IMG/VR virus record: IMGVR_UViG_2974506496_000001
Coordinates: 128,001-192,000 of that record
Origin: a virus
Lineage: Duplodnaviria > Caudoviricetes
DNA: 64,000 nucleotides
Direction: 5' to 3' (one strand)
Positions 37,666-39,688 of this stretch are shown here, piece by piece. Numbering within the stretch: position 1 is the stretch's first letter; each line of letters opens with the position of its first letter. The position numbers were made by a program, and so were the translations under genes. The notes beneath the pieces were generated by a model. The model worked only from the letters and a program-made list of their open reading frames with translations. It searched no databases and was not told the origin of the DNA.

Positions 37666-37741
37666 TGGTCTATAGTTCAGTCGGTAGAACAGCGGACTGT
37701 TAATCCGTAGGTCGCTGGTTCGAATCCAGCTAGACCAGCCA
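37666..37741 (+). tRNA. trnN: tRNA-Asn (GUU)
   Basis: Full cloverleaf: tggtcta/tagacca acceptor, gttc/gaac D arm, gcgga-ctGTTaa-tccgt, gctgg-ttcgaat-ccagc, encoded CCA. Confidence 0.97.
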
Positions 37742-38389: not shown

Positions 38390-39043
38390 ATGTCAACCGA
38401 AATGACCATTTCTCGTGCACTGGCTACAGTGAAGTCTTTGAATGTCCGCATCAAAGATATCTCTAAAAAGCAGGTGCTGATTCTGCCAACTGCCGGCACC
38501 GGCGACATGCAAGCGGTGATCAACAACAGCATCACTGTTACCGATGCTGAAGCCGCCATCCAGAATAACTGGAATGCGCTGAACGACATGATCAAAGTGC
38601 GTAACGATATTCGTGCGAAGATCATCCTGTCGAACGCCACAACCAAAGTGACTATCGCCGGTAAAGAATACACCATTGTTGAGGCATTGGACTTCCGCAA
38701 CTCCCTGGTCGAAAAGAAAGACACGGTTGAGTGCCTGAAGCGCAACTACGACTCCACAATGAAAGTTCACCGCCAGCAGGGCGACATCTACGAAAAGCGT
38801 TTAAGCGATGTGCGCTCCGAAGCCCTGGCCTCCGGCAAGAAGTTTGATGAAGCCAGCTTGAAGACCTTCACCGATCCAATCGATGTGAAGATGAAACCAG
38901 GCCTGATCGATCCTCTGGGTATCTCAGCAGTTATTGAGAAGCTGGACAAAGAGATCGCTGACTTCGAACTTAACGCCGACTACGCGTTGTCCGAATCTAA
39001 CGCAACGACCAAGATCACTGTTGAACTTGGTAACATTGCTTAA
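38390..39043 (+). CDS. Coiled-coil protein, DIP1984/septicolysin-like, directly upstream of a large ncRNA
   Basis: MTISRAL..K.L..RI, SNATTKVTIAGKEYTIVEAL, IDPL.I...IEKL..EI..FE...DYALSESNATT; family assigned from motif recall only. Confidence 0.65.
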   Translation: MSTEMTISRALATVKSLNVRIKDISKKQVLILPTAGTGDMQAVINNSITVTDAEAAIQNNWNALNDMIKVRNDIRAKIILSNATTKVTIAGKEYTIVEALDFRNSLVEKKDTVECLKRNYDSTMKVHRQQGDIYEKRLSDVRSEALASGKKFDEASLKTFTDPIDVKMKPGLIDPLGISAVIEKLDKEIADFELNADYALSESNATTKITVELGNIA

Positions 39044-39139
39044 CCCGTATTAAAAGGCTTGTCTTCGTTTGACGAAAGATCAAACACCGCCTTCCTATTT
39101 GGCCGGATGGAAGTAAAATAACCGGCCAGCCATTATACA

Positions 39140-39205
39140 TCTGTAGGTCGCAGGTTCGATTCCTGTCGGGGTGAAACCCGTAGCTCAGTCGGTTAGAGCA
39201 GCAGA
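39140..39205 (+). ncRNA. Circularly permuted tRNA-like domain (T arm, looped acceptor, D arm)
   Basis: tctgt-aggtc-gcagg ttcgatt cctgt-cggg gtgaaa cccg-ta-gctc agtcggtta gagc-a-gcaga. Confidence 0.85.
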
Positions 39206-39278
39206 ACAACTGCTTATGCTAAAAGCAATGATCTTTGGGATCATCAATGGTGTACTGTGAGCACCTTGAAATCACAGG

Positions 39279-39402
39279 TCTAAAGCTTAAAGCTATAACG
39301 TATAATGACTAAAGCTCTAAAGGTTTAAACTTATAACGTTAAAAAGATCTACACTCCCTGATGACTGTGTTCGTCGGGCTATAACGCTAAAACCTTTTAA
39401 AC
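39279..39402 (+). repeat. Degenerate 7-8-nt tandem repeat (YTAAAGC / TATAACG-like)
   Basis: tctaaagc ttaaagc tataacg tataatg actaaagc tctaaagg tttaaac ttataacg ttaaaaag, a hairpin, then ctataacg ctaaaacc ttttaaac. Confidence 0.7.
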
Positions 39403-39517
39403 AAATCCTGGGTATTCCTCCGCTGTGAGGATGGGTAATGTGGAGTGTGGTCTGCCACGTATCGCCGCCAGGCTGTCTTGCGGAGACAAGTCTTTCCCTT
39501 TTGCAATAGGTGACCTA

Positions 39518-39688
39518 ATGACAGGCACTGCCTTAATGATCATTGAGCAACCACAACTGGAATTCAATATCCCGTTGAGGTCGCCTTATCCTACCCTTCA
39601 TGACGTAAGGTTTTCTATGTTCCCTGTTATGGCTGAGCCTGAGAACGAAGGGTTTGAACAAGATTCAGAAACTGACGCATTACATTGA
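39518..39688 (+). CDS. Possible small acidic protein (56 aa)
   Basis: AGGTGA RBS before the ATG at 39518; short, so uncertain. Confidence 0.35.
   Translation: MTGTALMIIEQPQLEFNIPLRSPYPTLHDVRFSMFPVMAEPENEGFEQDSETDALH

What the first reader, a model, noticed from the sequence alone, without database searches (positions are those of the whole stretch)
39140..39205. Circularly permuted tRNA mimic that resembles the phage's own tRNA-Asn
Seen: the 3' half of a tRNA (tctgt, variable loop aggtc, T arm gcagg-TTCGATT-cctgt) precedes the 5' half (ta, D arm gctc-agtcggtta-gagc, a, gcaga). They are joined by a shortened acceptor stem cggg/cccg capped by gtgaaa. The anticodon stem gcaga/tctgt is open and connects to the host RNA. 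Both halves closely resemble the tRNA-Asn 1.4 kb upstream (tagttcagtcggtagaacagcgga vs tagctcagtcggttagagcagcaga; tccgtaggtcgctggttcgaatcc vs tctgtaggtcgcaggttcgattcc). Known: this T-acceptor-D order is the YrlA topology. Inference: it cannot be aminoacylated or decode but preserves the tRNA elbow, and it may have arisen by permutation of a tRNA gene.
Basis: partly seen in the sequence, partly recalled or inferred. Interest (0 to 1): 0.82.

Follow-up and report, generated by a model that had tools for sequence, protein, structure and literature searches.

The report
Permuted tRNA mimic in phage RNA
A jumbo Erwinia phage carries a tRNA-shaped module with a sealed acceptor end and no anticodon loop, grafted onto one hairpin of a conserved ~440-base structured RNA that follows one uncharacterised gene in hundreds of phages; it is built like the tRNA-like part of bacterial Y RNAs, but the phage has no Ro60 gene.

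Summary
The order is anticodon-like stem, variable loop, T arm, loop-capped 4-bp acceptor-like stem, U8-A9, D arm. It matches only the tRNA-like core of Rfam YrlA (44.5 bits, below the cut-off of 69). ARAGORN calls a tRNA only after the halves are swapped. The fold is kept by compensatory changes in 10 related phage sequences.

It is not a standard Y RNA. The 271-kb genome has no TROVE/Ro60 gene. The module sits at the tip of one hairpin of a 443-nt RNA (39053-39495) closed by a 16-bp stem. This larger RNA has a pseudoknot, a YAAAG repeat track and a 3' domain. It directly follows the T5.085/PHROG 1491 gene (38390-39043) in every homologous locus I examined. T5-like, My1 and PVP-SE1-like phages have a plain hairpin where the jumbo clade has the tRNA body. 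One metagenomic relative has a tRNA-Leu-like class II body at that site.

The resemblance to the phage's own tRNA-Asn is real but not specific.

Most likely the module is a selected tRNA-elbow handle on a protein-RNA particle. Its function is unknown.

This scan had already noted the scaffold RNA, and a similar module, on other DNA.

The parts
38390..39043 (+). Gene for a 217-aa protein of the T5.085 / PHROG 1491 family. It is the conserved upstream neighbour and presumed partner of the RNA.
   Evidence: PHROG 1491, E 1.3e-72. No Pfam family. Found in 706 phage records by tblastn. The AF2 model has pLDDT 88.6 and is mostly long helices. The only standout fold match is 3kdq, a protein of unknown function (VIA Z 10.3).
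39053..39495 (+). Whole structured scaffold RNA, 443 nt, closed by a 16-bp terminal stem (39053-39068 with 39480-39495).
   Evidence: Long-range stems of 12-25 bp, with unrelated sequences, close the equivalent region in 10 jumbo relatives. The same is true in My1, AKFV33, PVP-SE1, BCP8-2, Vibrio phage Gary and Clostridium phage D-1873; 7-11 has 9 bp. RNAalifold gives a 20-bp closing stem with 8 compensatory pairs.
39071..39078 (+). GACGAAAG, which fits the YrlA 5' motif GNCGAAN0-1G. It lies in a local hairpin (TTCGT 39064-39068 / ACGAA 39072-39076) that competes with the inner end of the closing stem.
   Evidence: Read directly. Kept in the Agricanvirus group, L127-L129 and AKFV33, but replaced by GCGGGA/T in the SNUABM48/SA002 clade, where it co-varies with its hairpin partner.
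39091..39129 (+). H-type pseudoknot. S1 is CTTCC 39091-39095 with GGAAG 39109-39113. S2 is 39099-39106 with 39122-39129. The loop GT(A/T)AAATAA is conserved.
   Evidence: S1 is 100% paired with a CG/UA swap. S2 is complementary with different sequences in every lineage, including My1 and Gary by script, and AKFV33 and PVP-SE1 by direct reading.
39140..39205 (+). Circularly permuted tRNA-like module, the finding itself. Parts: anticodon-like stem 39140-39144/39201-39205; variable loop 39145-39149; T arm 39150-39166; capped acceptor-like hairpin 39167-39180; U8-A9 39181-39182; D arm 39183-39199; A26 39200.
   Evidence: G-U pairs (39150-39166 and 39144-39201) would be A-C mismatches on the other strand, which argues for the + strand.
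39228..39244 (+). Hairpin ATGATC-TTTGG-GATCAT.
   Evidence: Read directly. GATC..GATC is kept in the relatives.
39249..39277 (+). Probable second pseudoknot: GGTG 39249-39252 with CACC 39262-39265, and CTGTGA 39255-39260 with TCACAG 39272-39277.
   Evidence: The second helix co-varies in AH06 (CCGTGA/TCACGG), L127 and L129 (CCACGG/CTGTGG) and L128 (CCATGG/CCATGG), read. This segment is absent from the SNUABM48/SA002 clade.
39280..39347 (+). Track of about nine short A-rich units of the YAAAG type, with a period of 7-8 nt.
   Evidence: This is the most conserved stretch between distant relatives. Analogous tracks occur in all other lineages: TTCAAAG, TTAAG and CTCAAGA.
39407..39472 (+). 3' domain. 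Stem CCTGG 39407-39411 with CCAGG 39468-39472 encloses hairpin 39416-39431 and hairpin GTGG/CCAC 39440-39458. The loop of the latter (39444-39454) resembles half a T arm.
   Evidence: The enclosing stem co-varies in My1 (CTCAG/CTGAG), AKFV33 (CCTAG/CTAGG), PVP-SE1 and BCP8-2 (read). The hairpin stem co-varies as GTGG/CCAC, GTGA/TCAC, GCGA/TCGC and GCAC/GTGC.
39518..39688 (+). Downstream gene (PHROG 10783). The GTG start at 39425 (annotated in the near-identical phage Rebecca and listed by the ORF scan) lies inside the RNA; the real start is probably ATG 39518.
   Evidence: The PHROG match covers only residues 32-87 of the long ORF. Relatives begin at the same ATGACAGGCACTGCC behind a ribosome-binding site.
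37666..37741 (+). tRNA-Asn(GTT), the phage's only tRNA gene. It is the comparison object, not part of the RNA.
   Evidence: ARAGORN and Rfam. It is the only tRNA in the whole genome.

Best explanation
Positions 39140-39205 encode a real, selectively maintained mimic of the tRNA body: T arm, D arm, variable loop and a short sealed acceptor stem, which together should form the L-shaped elbow. It is not a free-standing small RNA. It is grafted onto the tip of one hairpin of a 443-nt structured RNA (39053-39495, + strand). That scaffold RNA begins 9 nt after the stop codon of the T5.085/PHROG 1491 gene. It follows a homologue of that gene in every locus I examined, drawn from eight or more very different phage groups, so protein and RNA most probably form one ribonucleoprotein.

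In T5-like, My1 and PVP-SE1-like phages the same hairpin is plain. In a clade of ~270-295-kb jumbo phages (Agricanvirus, SNUABM_37/48, SA002 and metagenomic relatives) its loop has been replaced by a tRNA body.

Inferred mechanism: the module cannot be charged or decode. It presents a tRNA elbow that recruits or occupies a tRNA-recognising protein, such as T- and D-arm modification enzymes or another elbow reader, and so couples that factor to the particle. This is analogous to the tRNA-like module of YrlA in Ro60 particles, but without Ro60.

Shown: the structure, its conservation, its place in the scaffold, the gene linkage, and the absence of Ro60. Inferred: transcription as one RNA, protein binding, and the recruiting function.
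For: Structure and selection:
- YrlA core match, E 1.5e-8; it is the only such site in the genome.
- The swap test gives an ARAGORN tRNA.
- Unguided RNAalifold recovers all four helices plus the closing stem; 20 of 56 pairs have compensatory changes.
- Pair counts are 95-100% paired; all 4 acceptor-like pairs are compensatory, and 0 of 500 shuffles reach the covariation score.
- The stem length varies from 4 to 8 bp while staying paired.
- The Levitt pair co-varies in L127.

Scaffold:
- Closing stems with unrelated sequences occur in most lineages at 9-25 bp by script; KIL2 and L132 have 8 bp by eye.
- The pseudoknot is shared.
- Alignment shows the module is an insertion relative to AKFV33, My1 and PVP-SE1. 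There the site folds as a plain 7-bp hairpin in AKFV33 and My1 and reads as a 5-bp hairpin in PVP-SE1.

Gene linkage:
- 300-500 nt unannotated gaps lie behind the gene in My1, AKFV33, PVP-SE1, BCP8-2, Gary, KIL2, D-1873 and 7-11 and in 8 metagenomic jumbo loci.

Not Ro-type:
- No TROVE domain in the 271-kb genome.
- YrlA scores are 32-44.5 bits against a cut-off of 69 in all relatives that match.

Weak hint of transcription:
- Near-identical contigs in three leaf-litter metatranscriptomes cover 39078-39484, with two ending at 39483/39484. Of the flanking 3 kb, only one 181-nt piece is also covered by near-identical contigs.
Against: - There is no direct evidence of a transcript with these ends. 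Contigs show neither strand nor ends, and the runs were chosen because they hold this stretch.
- No binding, modification or phenotype data exist.
- The protein has no recognisable RNA-binding fold.
- The folding-energy z-score of the module is ordinary.
- The covariation rests on 10 sequences from about four sub-clades.
- With longer flanks the single-sequence minimum-energy fold shifts to alternatives.
- A later check of this scan's earlier claims about the T5 scaffold RNA was recorded as 'part of it fell'.
Confidence: 0.5

Rival explanations
1. It is a true YrlA-type Y RNA. The phage RNA uses the host's Ro60/Rsr protein, and the tRNA-like module does whatever it does in bacterial Rsr-YrlA particles.
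For: - Same topology, with a significant partial match to the YrlA model.
- GACGAAAG at 39071-39078 fits the GNCGAAN0-1G motif that Chen et al. 2014 (PMC4201824) link to Rsr binding.
- The phage encodes RtcB, the ligase encoded in the same operon as rsr and yrlA in Salmonella (PMC7790460, abstract seen).
Against: - The score is below the Rfam cut-off, and only model positions 23-87 align.
- No TROVE gene is in the genome, whereas published YrlA genes lie within 4 kb of Ro60.
- The motif is not kept in the SNUABM48/SA002 clade and co-varies as part of a hairpin.
- The module sits in a 443-nt RNA, not an 80-130-nt Y RNA.
- The scaffold has its own conserved protein neighbour and also occurs in phages of E. 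coli. From my own knowledge, not checked here, E. coli K-12 lacks rsr.
- RtcB is missing from SA002, which has the module.
- I could not test whether Erwinia amylovora has rsr.
Confidence: 0.08
2. It is a decoy. The sealed, anticodon-less tRNA body competes with real tRNAs for a host factor that reads the tRNA elbow or T/D arms, for example a tRNA-targeting defence nuclease or transferase. It titrates that factor during infection, and the scaffold merely provides stability and copy number.
For: - The module keeps exactly the parts read by elbow- and arm-binding proteins, and lacks both usual attack sites, the anticodon loop and the CCA end.
- It is restricted to one jumbo-phage clade, as an accessory counter-measure would be.
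- A different tRNA class (Leu-like) occupies the same site in L132, as expected if different tRNA shapes are being imitated.
Against: - No target is known.
- Anticodon nucleases would not be titrated by a module that has no anticodon loop.
- The fixed position on a conserved particle RNA suggests an integrated role.
- There is no experimental evidence.
Confidence: 0.2
3. It is a purely structural element that acts in cis. A compact, nuclease-resistant tRNA fold caps the hairpin to help the large RNA fold or survive. It may pick up tRNA modifications, but it has no trans-acting partner of its own.
For: - The same site is an ordinary hairpin in most lineages, so the scaffold works without the module.
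- The acceptor-like loop and its length are free to vary.
Against: The T-loop, the D-loop and the tertiary Levitt pair are held much more tightly than stability alone would require. Two different tRNA classes were recruited, where any stable hairpin would have served.
Confidence: 0.17
4. It is not a functional unit. Either it is the chance juxtaposition or decayed remnant of two tandem tRNA genes (T arm of one, D arm of the next), or it is a permuted tRNA or two-piece tmRNA gene that is processed into a working adaptor.
For: Dimeric tRNAs are a known source of false YrlA hits (PMC4201824). My own pattern scan of viral contigs mostly returned tandem tRNAs.
Against: - The 'acceptor' strands are only 4-8 nt and are joined by a 4-8-nt loop, with compensatory changes.
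- The flanks pair as an anticodon-like stem.
- The module is conserved across phages whose neighbouring protein is only 44-59% identical.
- There is no anticodon loop, CCA, tag reading frame or ARAGORN tmRNA call.
Confidence: 0.03

Closest known systems
YrlA (Y RNA-like A; Rfam RF02553; Chen et al. 2014, PMC4201824; structure in Wang et al. 2018, bioRxiv 10.1101/312249)
   Same: Same circular permutation: T arm, loop-capped acceptor stem, then D arm, with the chain opened at the anticodon stem. The T- and D-loop nucleotides are conserved and the Levitt pair co-varies. It is embedded in a non-coding RNA encoded next to a protein gene. Published examples include phages.
   Different: - No Ro60/TROVE gene anywhere in the genome.
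- Score of 44.5 bits against a cut-off of 69, with the Ro-binding stem of the model unaligned.
- The host RNA is 443 nt, with pseudoknots and a repeat track, instead of about 100-130 nt.
- The neighbouring protein belongs to a different, uncharacterised helical family.
- The module is more tRNA-like than the YrlA consensus, with a 5-nt variable loop and a position-26 nucleotide.
Mycobacterium smegmatis YrlA (PMC4201824)
   Same: Some relatives (SA002, L131, L132, L133) have acceptor-like stems of 7 bp or more. [quoted passage not shown]
   Different: The window's stem has only 4 bp, so such processing is unlikely here. No CCA is encoded.
Uncatalogued ~355-nt RNA behind gene T5.085 of T5-like phages
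   Same: The window's 39053-39495 RNA is a member. It has the same gene neighbour, closing stem, pseudoknot with GGAGGTTAAA, A-rich repeat track and 3' domain.
   Different: The jumbo-phage version is about 60-90 nt longer. It carries the tRNA body, and in some relatives a second pseudoknot and a changed 3'-domain loop.
GOLLD and ROOL large ornate RNAs (Rfam; PMC12286853)
   Same: These are large structured phage or prophage RNAs of unknown function that lie near tRNA genes. A GOLLD example in my own loci is followed by tRNAs (L094).
   Different: There is no sequence or model match. From my own knowledge, the tRNAs associated with GOLLD are normal genes, not permuted sealed mimics, and those RNAs have no fixed protein-gene neighbour.
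tmRNA, including two-piece permuted forms, with SmpB
   Same: Both combine a tRNA-like domain with pseudoknots. Permuted ssrA genes also place the T arm before the 5' acceptor strand.
   Different: There is no 7-bp acceptor stem with CCA, no tag reading frame and no ARAGORN tmRNA call. A full D stem is present and the acceptor is closed by a small loop.

Membership tests
YrlA / bacterial Y RNA (RF02553) | tRNA-like domain in the order T arm, capped acceptor-like stem, D arm, with conserved T- and D-loop nucleotides | tested here: met
   cmscan aligns model positions 23-87 with E 1.5e-8. The helices are supported by covariation.
YrlA / bacterial Y RNA (RF02553) | Score at or above the Rfam gathering threshold (69 bits) over the whole model | tested here: not met
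   44.5 bits in the window. Eight of 10 relatives score 32.3-41.9 bits; L132 and L133 have no hit at E <= 0.1.
YrlA / bacterial Y RNA (RF02553) | Encoded near (within about 4 kb, same strand) a Ro60/Rsr (TROVE) gene | tested here: not met
   PF05731 finds nothing in the 98%-complete 271-kb genome, while the control genomes are detected. True phage YrlA-plus-Ro60-sized-ORF loci (Ro60 judged by eye from the ORF start, not by a Pfam search) were seen elsewhere for comparison: L049, L071, L088, L095, L098.
YrlA / bacterial Y RNA (RF02553) | Terminal stem carrying the GNCGAAN0-1G motif thought to bind Rsr | tested here: inconclusive
   GACGAAAG is at 39071-39078, just inside the closing stem. It is kept in the Agricanvirus group, L127-129 and AKFV33, but not in the SNUABM48/SA002 clade. 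Model positions 1-22 and 88-114 are not aligned.
YrlA / bacterial Y RNA (RF02553) | Small RNA of about 80-130 nt bound by Rsr and carrying tRNA-type modifications | not testable with these tools
   By comparative structure the RNA is 443 nt. Binding and modification need experiments.
Functional tRNA or permuted tRNA gene | Anticodon loop, 7-bp acceptor stem, and a 3' end that can carry CCA | tested here: not met
   There is no anticodon loop. The acceptor-like stem has 4 bp and is closed by GTGAAA. ARAGORN finds nothing in the native order.
tmRNA (standard or two-piece) | Alanine-type acceptor stem, tag reading frame, detection by ARAGORN or the Rfam tmRNA models | tested here: not met
   No tmRNA was called by ARAGORN or by Rfam at E <= 10.
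T5.085-associated scaffold RNA (uncatalogued) | Lies directly downstream of, and on the same strand as, a T5.085/PHROG 1491 gene | tested here: met
   The closing stem starts 9 nt after the stop codon. The arrangement is the same in all other complete loci examined; L134's contig ends about 100 nt after the gene.
T5.085-associated scaffold RNA (uncatalogued) | Long closing stem, H-type pseudoknot ending in GGAGGTTAAA-like loop, A-rich short-repeat track, and a 3' domain stem after AAATCC | tested here: met
DUF7873-associated double tRNA-mimic RNA (earlier notes of this scan) | The neighbouring protein is a DUF7873 (PF25283) member | tested here: not met
   PF25283 gives no hit at E <= 10 in this genome, AKFV33, PVP-SE1 or BCP8-2. 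No member of the protein family hits it in Pfam scans. The only link is a language-model similarity of 0.85. Remote homology was not tested by profile-profile comparison.

The most novel reading that the evidence does not exclude
The T5.085-family protein and its ~350-450-nt RNA form a widespread, undescribed phage ribonucleoprotein with a modular plug-in hairpin. One clade of jumbo phages has at least twice plugged whole tRNA bodies into that site, a class I body here and a tRNA-Leu-like class II body in L132. That clade includes the genus of the nucleus-forming phage RAY (bioRxiv 10.1101/2023.02.24.529968). The tRNA bodies would couple the particle to tRNA-handling machinery, for example RtcB-type repair, tRNA modification enzymes, or traffic of RNA out of the phage nucleus. 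This would be a Ro60-independent parallel to Y RNA particles.
Probability: 0.12. Interest if true: 0.85.

Novelty: new variant of a known kind. Interest (0 to 1): 0.6.

Why it matters
Permuted, sealed tRNA mimics have so far been tied to Ro60 and its Y RNAs. Here the same design sits on a different and much larger RNA with a different protein neighbour, in a genome without Ro60. This suggests that a tRNA elbow on a stem is a general, repeatedly recruited adaptor for RNA-protein particles.

The natural series offers a ready-made comparison for asking what the elbow does. The series runs from a plain hairpin in T5-like phages, to a class I tRNA body in this clade, to a class II body in one relative. 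T5 relatives and RAY-type Erwinia phages are tractable systems.

The result also corrects local annotation. A 443-nt RNA gene is missing from the records, the 'tail fiber' label of the neighbouring gene is doubtful, and the annotated start of the next gene lies inside the RNA.

Tried and rejected
- A pattern scan of viral contigs for T-loop...TAGCTCAG returned mostly tandem tRNA genes and some classical YrlA-plus-Ro60 loci. None belonged to this family.
- Pattern scans for the pseudoknot motif found nothing or were swamped by ribosome-binding sites; only 6 of 113 loci were true.
- The sigma-70 promoter and terminator scan gave nothing useful for the RNA's ends.
- Rfam in permissive mode found no family for the scaffold in the window or in 8 non-jumbo loci.
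- Pfam, PDB sequence search and Foldseek gave no function for the 217-aa protein. There were only weak links to DUF6847 and 3kdq.
- My first guess at the DUF7873 accession was wrong. The correct one, PF25283, gave no hit.
- RNA ligase PF09414 and CCA-adding enzyme PF01743 are absent from the genome.
- RtcB presence does not track the module cleanly; SA002 lacks it.
- Host Rsr could not be checked.
- Metatranscriptome contigs leave most of the flanking 3 kb uncovered. This cannot be read as absence, because the runs were chosen for this stretch.
- No paper on T5.085 or on this RNA was found.
Full report
**Where the window comes from.** The window is 99% identical over this region to the Erwinia amylovora jumbo phages Rebecca, Desertfox, MadMel and Deimos-Minion, genus Agricanvirus. 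The genome record is 271 kb and about 98% complete. It has a single tRNA gene, tRNA-Asn at 37666-37741.

**The observation.** Reading 5' to 3' on the + strand:
- anticodon-like strand TCTGT;
- a 5-nt variable loop;
- a 5-bp T arm with loop TTCGATT;
- a 4-bp acceptor-like stem closed by GTGAAA;
- the dinucleotide TA at the place of U8-A9;
- a 4-bp D arm with a 9-nt loop containing GG;
- one A at the place of position 26;
- the strand GCAGA, which pairs back to TCTGT.

Several tests show this is not chance:
- A permissive Rfam scan of 801 nt gives one meaningful hit, YrlA, covering only model positions 23-87 of 114. The score is 44.5 bits with E 1.5e-8, against a gathering score of 69.
- It is the only such site in the genome.
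- ARAGORN finds nothing in the native order. It calls a tRNA once the two halves are swapped around a borrowed 7-nt loop, even with the native 4-bp acceptor.
- The 74-nt segment folds into exactly this shape as its minimum-energy structure.
- Its energy z-score is unremarkable (-1.26), so the case rests on the model match and on comparative data.

**Conservation.** BLASTN finds the region in AH06 (86% identity), SNUABM_37/48 and Salmonella phage SA002 (about 70%). Through homologues of the neighbouring protein I fetched eight further metagenomic loci.

Ten sequences carry the module at the same place (A3). On that alignment:
- the anticodon-like, T, acceptor-like and D helices are 96, 100, 95 and 100% paired;
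- two, two and four pairs of the first three have changes on both sides, and the D stem is invariant;
- no shuffle out of 500 reaches the observed covariation score;
- sliding the partners destroys the signal.

RNAalifold on the full-length RNAs recovers the same four helices without guidance. The acceptor-like stem ranges from 4 bp (window) to 8 bp (SA002), with unrelated sequences and loops. The T loop, the D loop and the D stem are almost invariant. In L127 the D loop has A15 and the variable loop ends in U48, where all the others have G15 and C48. This is a compensatory change in the tertiary Levitt pair, the same argument used for YrlA (PMC4201824). G-U pairs in the T and anticodon-like stems fit the + strand only.

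**What the module is attached to.** The anticodon-like stem opens into a much larger RNA.
- A 16-bp stem joins 39053-39068 to 39480-39495. Equivalent stems of 12-25 bp, with entirely different sequences, close the homologous region in the relatives. RNAalifold extends it to 20 bp, with many compensatory pairs.
- Inside it lies an H-type pseudoknot at 39091-39129, whose second helix differs in every lineage but always pairs.
- The hairpin bearing the tRNA-like module follows, then further hairpins and a probable second pseudoknot.
- Next comes a strongly conserved track of YAAAG-type units at 39280-39347.
- The 3' domain is enclosed by CCTGG/CCAGG (39407-39472).

The RNA starts 9 nt after the stop codon of a 217-aa gene (38390-39043). 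It overlaps the first 31 codons of the ORF that begins at 39425. That ORF's family match begins only at residue 32, so its real start is probably ATG 39518.

**The gene-RNA pair is widespread.** The 217-aa protein belongs to PHROG 1491, the family of T5 gene T5.085, with tblastn matches in 706 phage records. I inspected these phages:
- My1;
- the T5-like AKFV33;
- PVP-SE1;
- Bacillus phage BCP8-2;
- Vibrio phage Gary;
- Pseudomonas phage KIL2;
- Clostridium phage D-1873;
- Salmonella phage 7-11.

In all of them the gene is followed by an unannotated gap of 300-500 nt. Most gaps show the same parts: a closing stem, an A-rich short-repeat track and a 3' stem after AAATCC. A recognisable GGAGGT-type pseudoknot is present in My1, AKFV33, PVP-SE1 and Gary. 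The gaps often lie inside or next to tRNA gene arrays.

No Rfam family matches the scaffold, and I found no paper on it. Earlier notes of this scan describe the same ~355-nt RNA in T5-like phages, and one describes a sealed tRNA-shaped module on this scaffold in another jumbo phage. So the scan has seen this before on other DNA. I re-derived the points used here from my own calls.

**The module is an insertion.** An alignment of the 5' parts shows homology up to and including the 5' strand of the hairpin (AATCT). After that, AKFV33 and My1 have a 7-bp hairpin with a 5-nt loop and PVP-SE1 a 5-bp one, while the jumbo clade has the roughly 60-nt tRNA body.

All seven complete jumbo-type loci fetched through the protein carry a tRNA body there. 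In one of them, L132, it is a different kind. It has a long variable arm, a 7-bp capped acceptor stem and a D half whose 20 best matches are 16 tRNA-Leu and 4 tRNA-Ser. The site has therefore accepted at least two kinds of tRNA body.

**Origin.** Still, a tRNA-Met, two tRNA-Arg and a tRNA-Gln from unrelated phages score higher. The relatives' modules match Arg, Thr, Met or Phe best. The module is a generic class I tRNA body. Descent from tRNA-Asn is neither shown nor excluded.

**Why it is not filed as YrlA.** The published family is defined by:
- proximity to a Ro60/TROVE gene;
- a terminal stem with GNCGAAN0-1G;
- a size near 100 nt (PMC4201824).

Here the genome has no TROVE domain. The model's stem positions do not align. 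All relatives score 32-42 bits. The RNA is 443 nt. GACGAAAG at 39071-39078 does fit the motif and recurs in AKFV33. However, it is part of a co-varying hairpin and is lost in the SNUABM48/SA002 clade, so I rate it inconclusive. Genuine phage YrlA genes next to ORFs of Ro60 size, whose starts read like Ro60, turned up in my pattern scan and look different in context.

**The partner protein.**
- It has no Pfam family.
- Its AF2 model is confident (pLDDT 88.6) and consists of long helices with small strands following two SNAT-like motifs.
- The only standout structural match is 3kdq, an uncharacterised Corynebacterium protein (sequence profile E 0.011, VIA Z 10.3).
- A language-model search places DUF6847 and DUF7873 nearest, at 0.86 and 0.85. 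The DUF7873 model itself finds nothing in these genomes, even at E 10.

The link to the 'DUF7873 plus double tRNA-mimic RNA' systems noted earlier in this scan is therefore a resemblance of design. It is not a shown homology.

**Expression.** Three small leaf-litter metatranscriptomes contain contigs with 0-2 mismatches covering 39078-39228, 39239-39388, 39258-39483 and 39252-39484. Within the 3-kb stretch examined, only one 181-nt piece outside the RNA is also covered by near-identical contigs; divergent contigs matching the tRNA-Asn gene also lie on it. Two contigs end at 39483/39484, inside the 3' strand of the closing stem. This is a weak hint of an abundant RNA. Contigs give neither strand nor true ends, and the runs were selected for holding this stretch.

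**Context for function.** The phage encodes an RtcB ligase elsewhere in the genome. AH06 and SNUABM48 also have it, but SA002 does not, and neither do AKFV33 or PVP-SE1. I give this no weight. The genus includes RAY, a nucleus-forming phage (bioRxiv 10.1101/2023.02.24.529968). That motivates the speculative trafficking idea in the novel case.

**Verdict.** The added result is the identity of the 'host RNA'. It is a conserved ~440-nt partner RNA of the T5.085-family gene, and a jumbo-phage clade has inserted a tRNA body into it. I consider the structural claims about 90% secure. The functional reading, an elbow handle on a Ro-independent ribonucleoprotein, is about even odds against the decoy and purely structural alternatives.

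Noticed in passing
window 39425-39688: The GTG start of this ORF (annotated in Rebecca, listed by the ORF scan here) lies inside the structured RNA. The PHROG 10783 match covers only residues 32-87, and relatives start at the equivalent of ATG 39518, so the annotated N-terminus is probably spurious.
   Followed up: partly
L132:2264-2350 and about 40 nt downstream: A metagenomic relative carries, at the same hairpin, a permuted class II (tRNA-Leu-like) body with a long variable arm. Shortly after it lies a hairpin CGGA-CTGTTAA-TCCG, identical in sequence to the anticodon arm of the window's tRNA-Asn.
   Followed up: partly
window 39440-39458: The loop of this 3'-domain hairpin has the consensus GTTGYRGGTTCG in several jumbo relatives. 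It resembles the end of a variable loop plus the 5' half of a T arm. T5-like phages have CATAAGATAT there, so this loop co-occurs with the tRNA insert. It could be a docking site or a remnant of a second tRNA-like element.
   Followed up: no
window 39280-39347: A track of about nine YAAAG-type units with a period of 7-8 nt is the best-conserved stretch between distant relatives. Other lineages use TTCAAAG, TTAAG or CTCAAGA. It looks like a binding platform for several copies of a protein.
   Followed up: partly
window 38390-39043: The 'tail fiber protein' label that PHROG 1491 and several RefSeq records give this family looks wrong. In the T5-like phage AKFV33 the gene lies among genes with T5-type promoters, and in several phages it lies in or beside tRNA gene arrays. 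The protein is predicted mostly helical and resembles only PDB 3kdq, of unknown function.
   Followed up: partly
own genome G000:C1:44575-45723 (outside the window): The phage encodes a full-length RtcB RNA ligase (420.7 bits). AH06 and SNUABM48 have it too; SA002, AKFV33 and PVP-SE1 do not.
   Followed up: partly
L127:2609-2690; L129 and L133 just after the scaffold RNA; tRNA-Asn at L127:776-848, L129:780-852, L003:3742-3814: tRNA or tRNA-like genes directly follow the scaffold RNA in several relatives. A tRNA lies at L127:776-848 and L129:780-852, the place the window's tRNA-Asn occupies upstream of the gene (isotype not checked here), and SNUABM48 has an annotated tRNA-Asn downstream of it at L003:3742-3814.
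   Followed up: no
L250:2610-2717: Clostridium phage D-1873 has a drum RNA (RF02958, 47.7 bits, above its cut-off) about 430 nt after its copy of the scaffold RNA.
   Followed up: no
L049, L071, L088, L095, L098 (IMG/VR contigs): These are classical phage YrlA-type permuted tRNA mimics lying directly upstream of Ro60-sized ORFs (433-546 aa) that look like Ro60 by eye. None reached the Rfam YrlA gathering score in the default scan.
   Followed up: partly
L085:12550-12680 (minus strand; contig end): Another permuted tRNA mimic is followed by a track of CAAGG repeats. The design resembles the window's RNA, but the upstream gene is cut off by the contig end.
   Followed up: no
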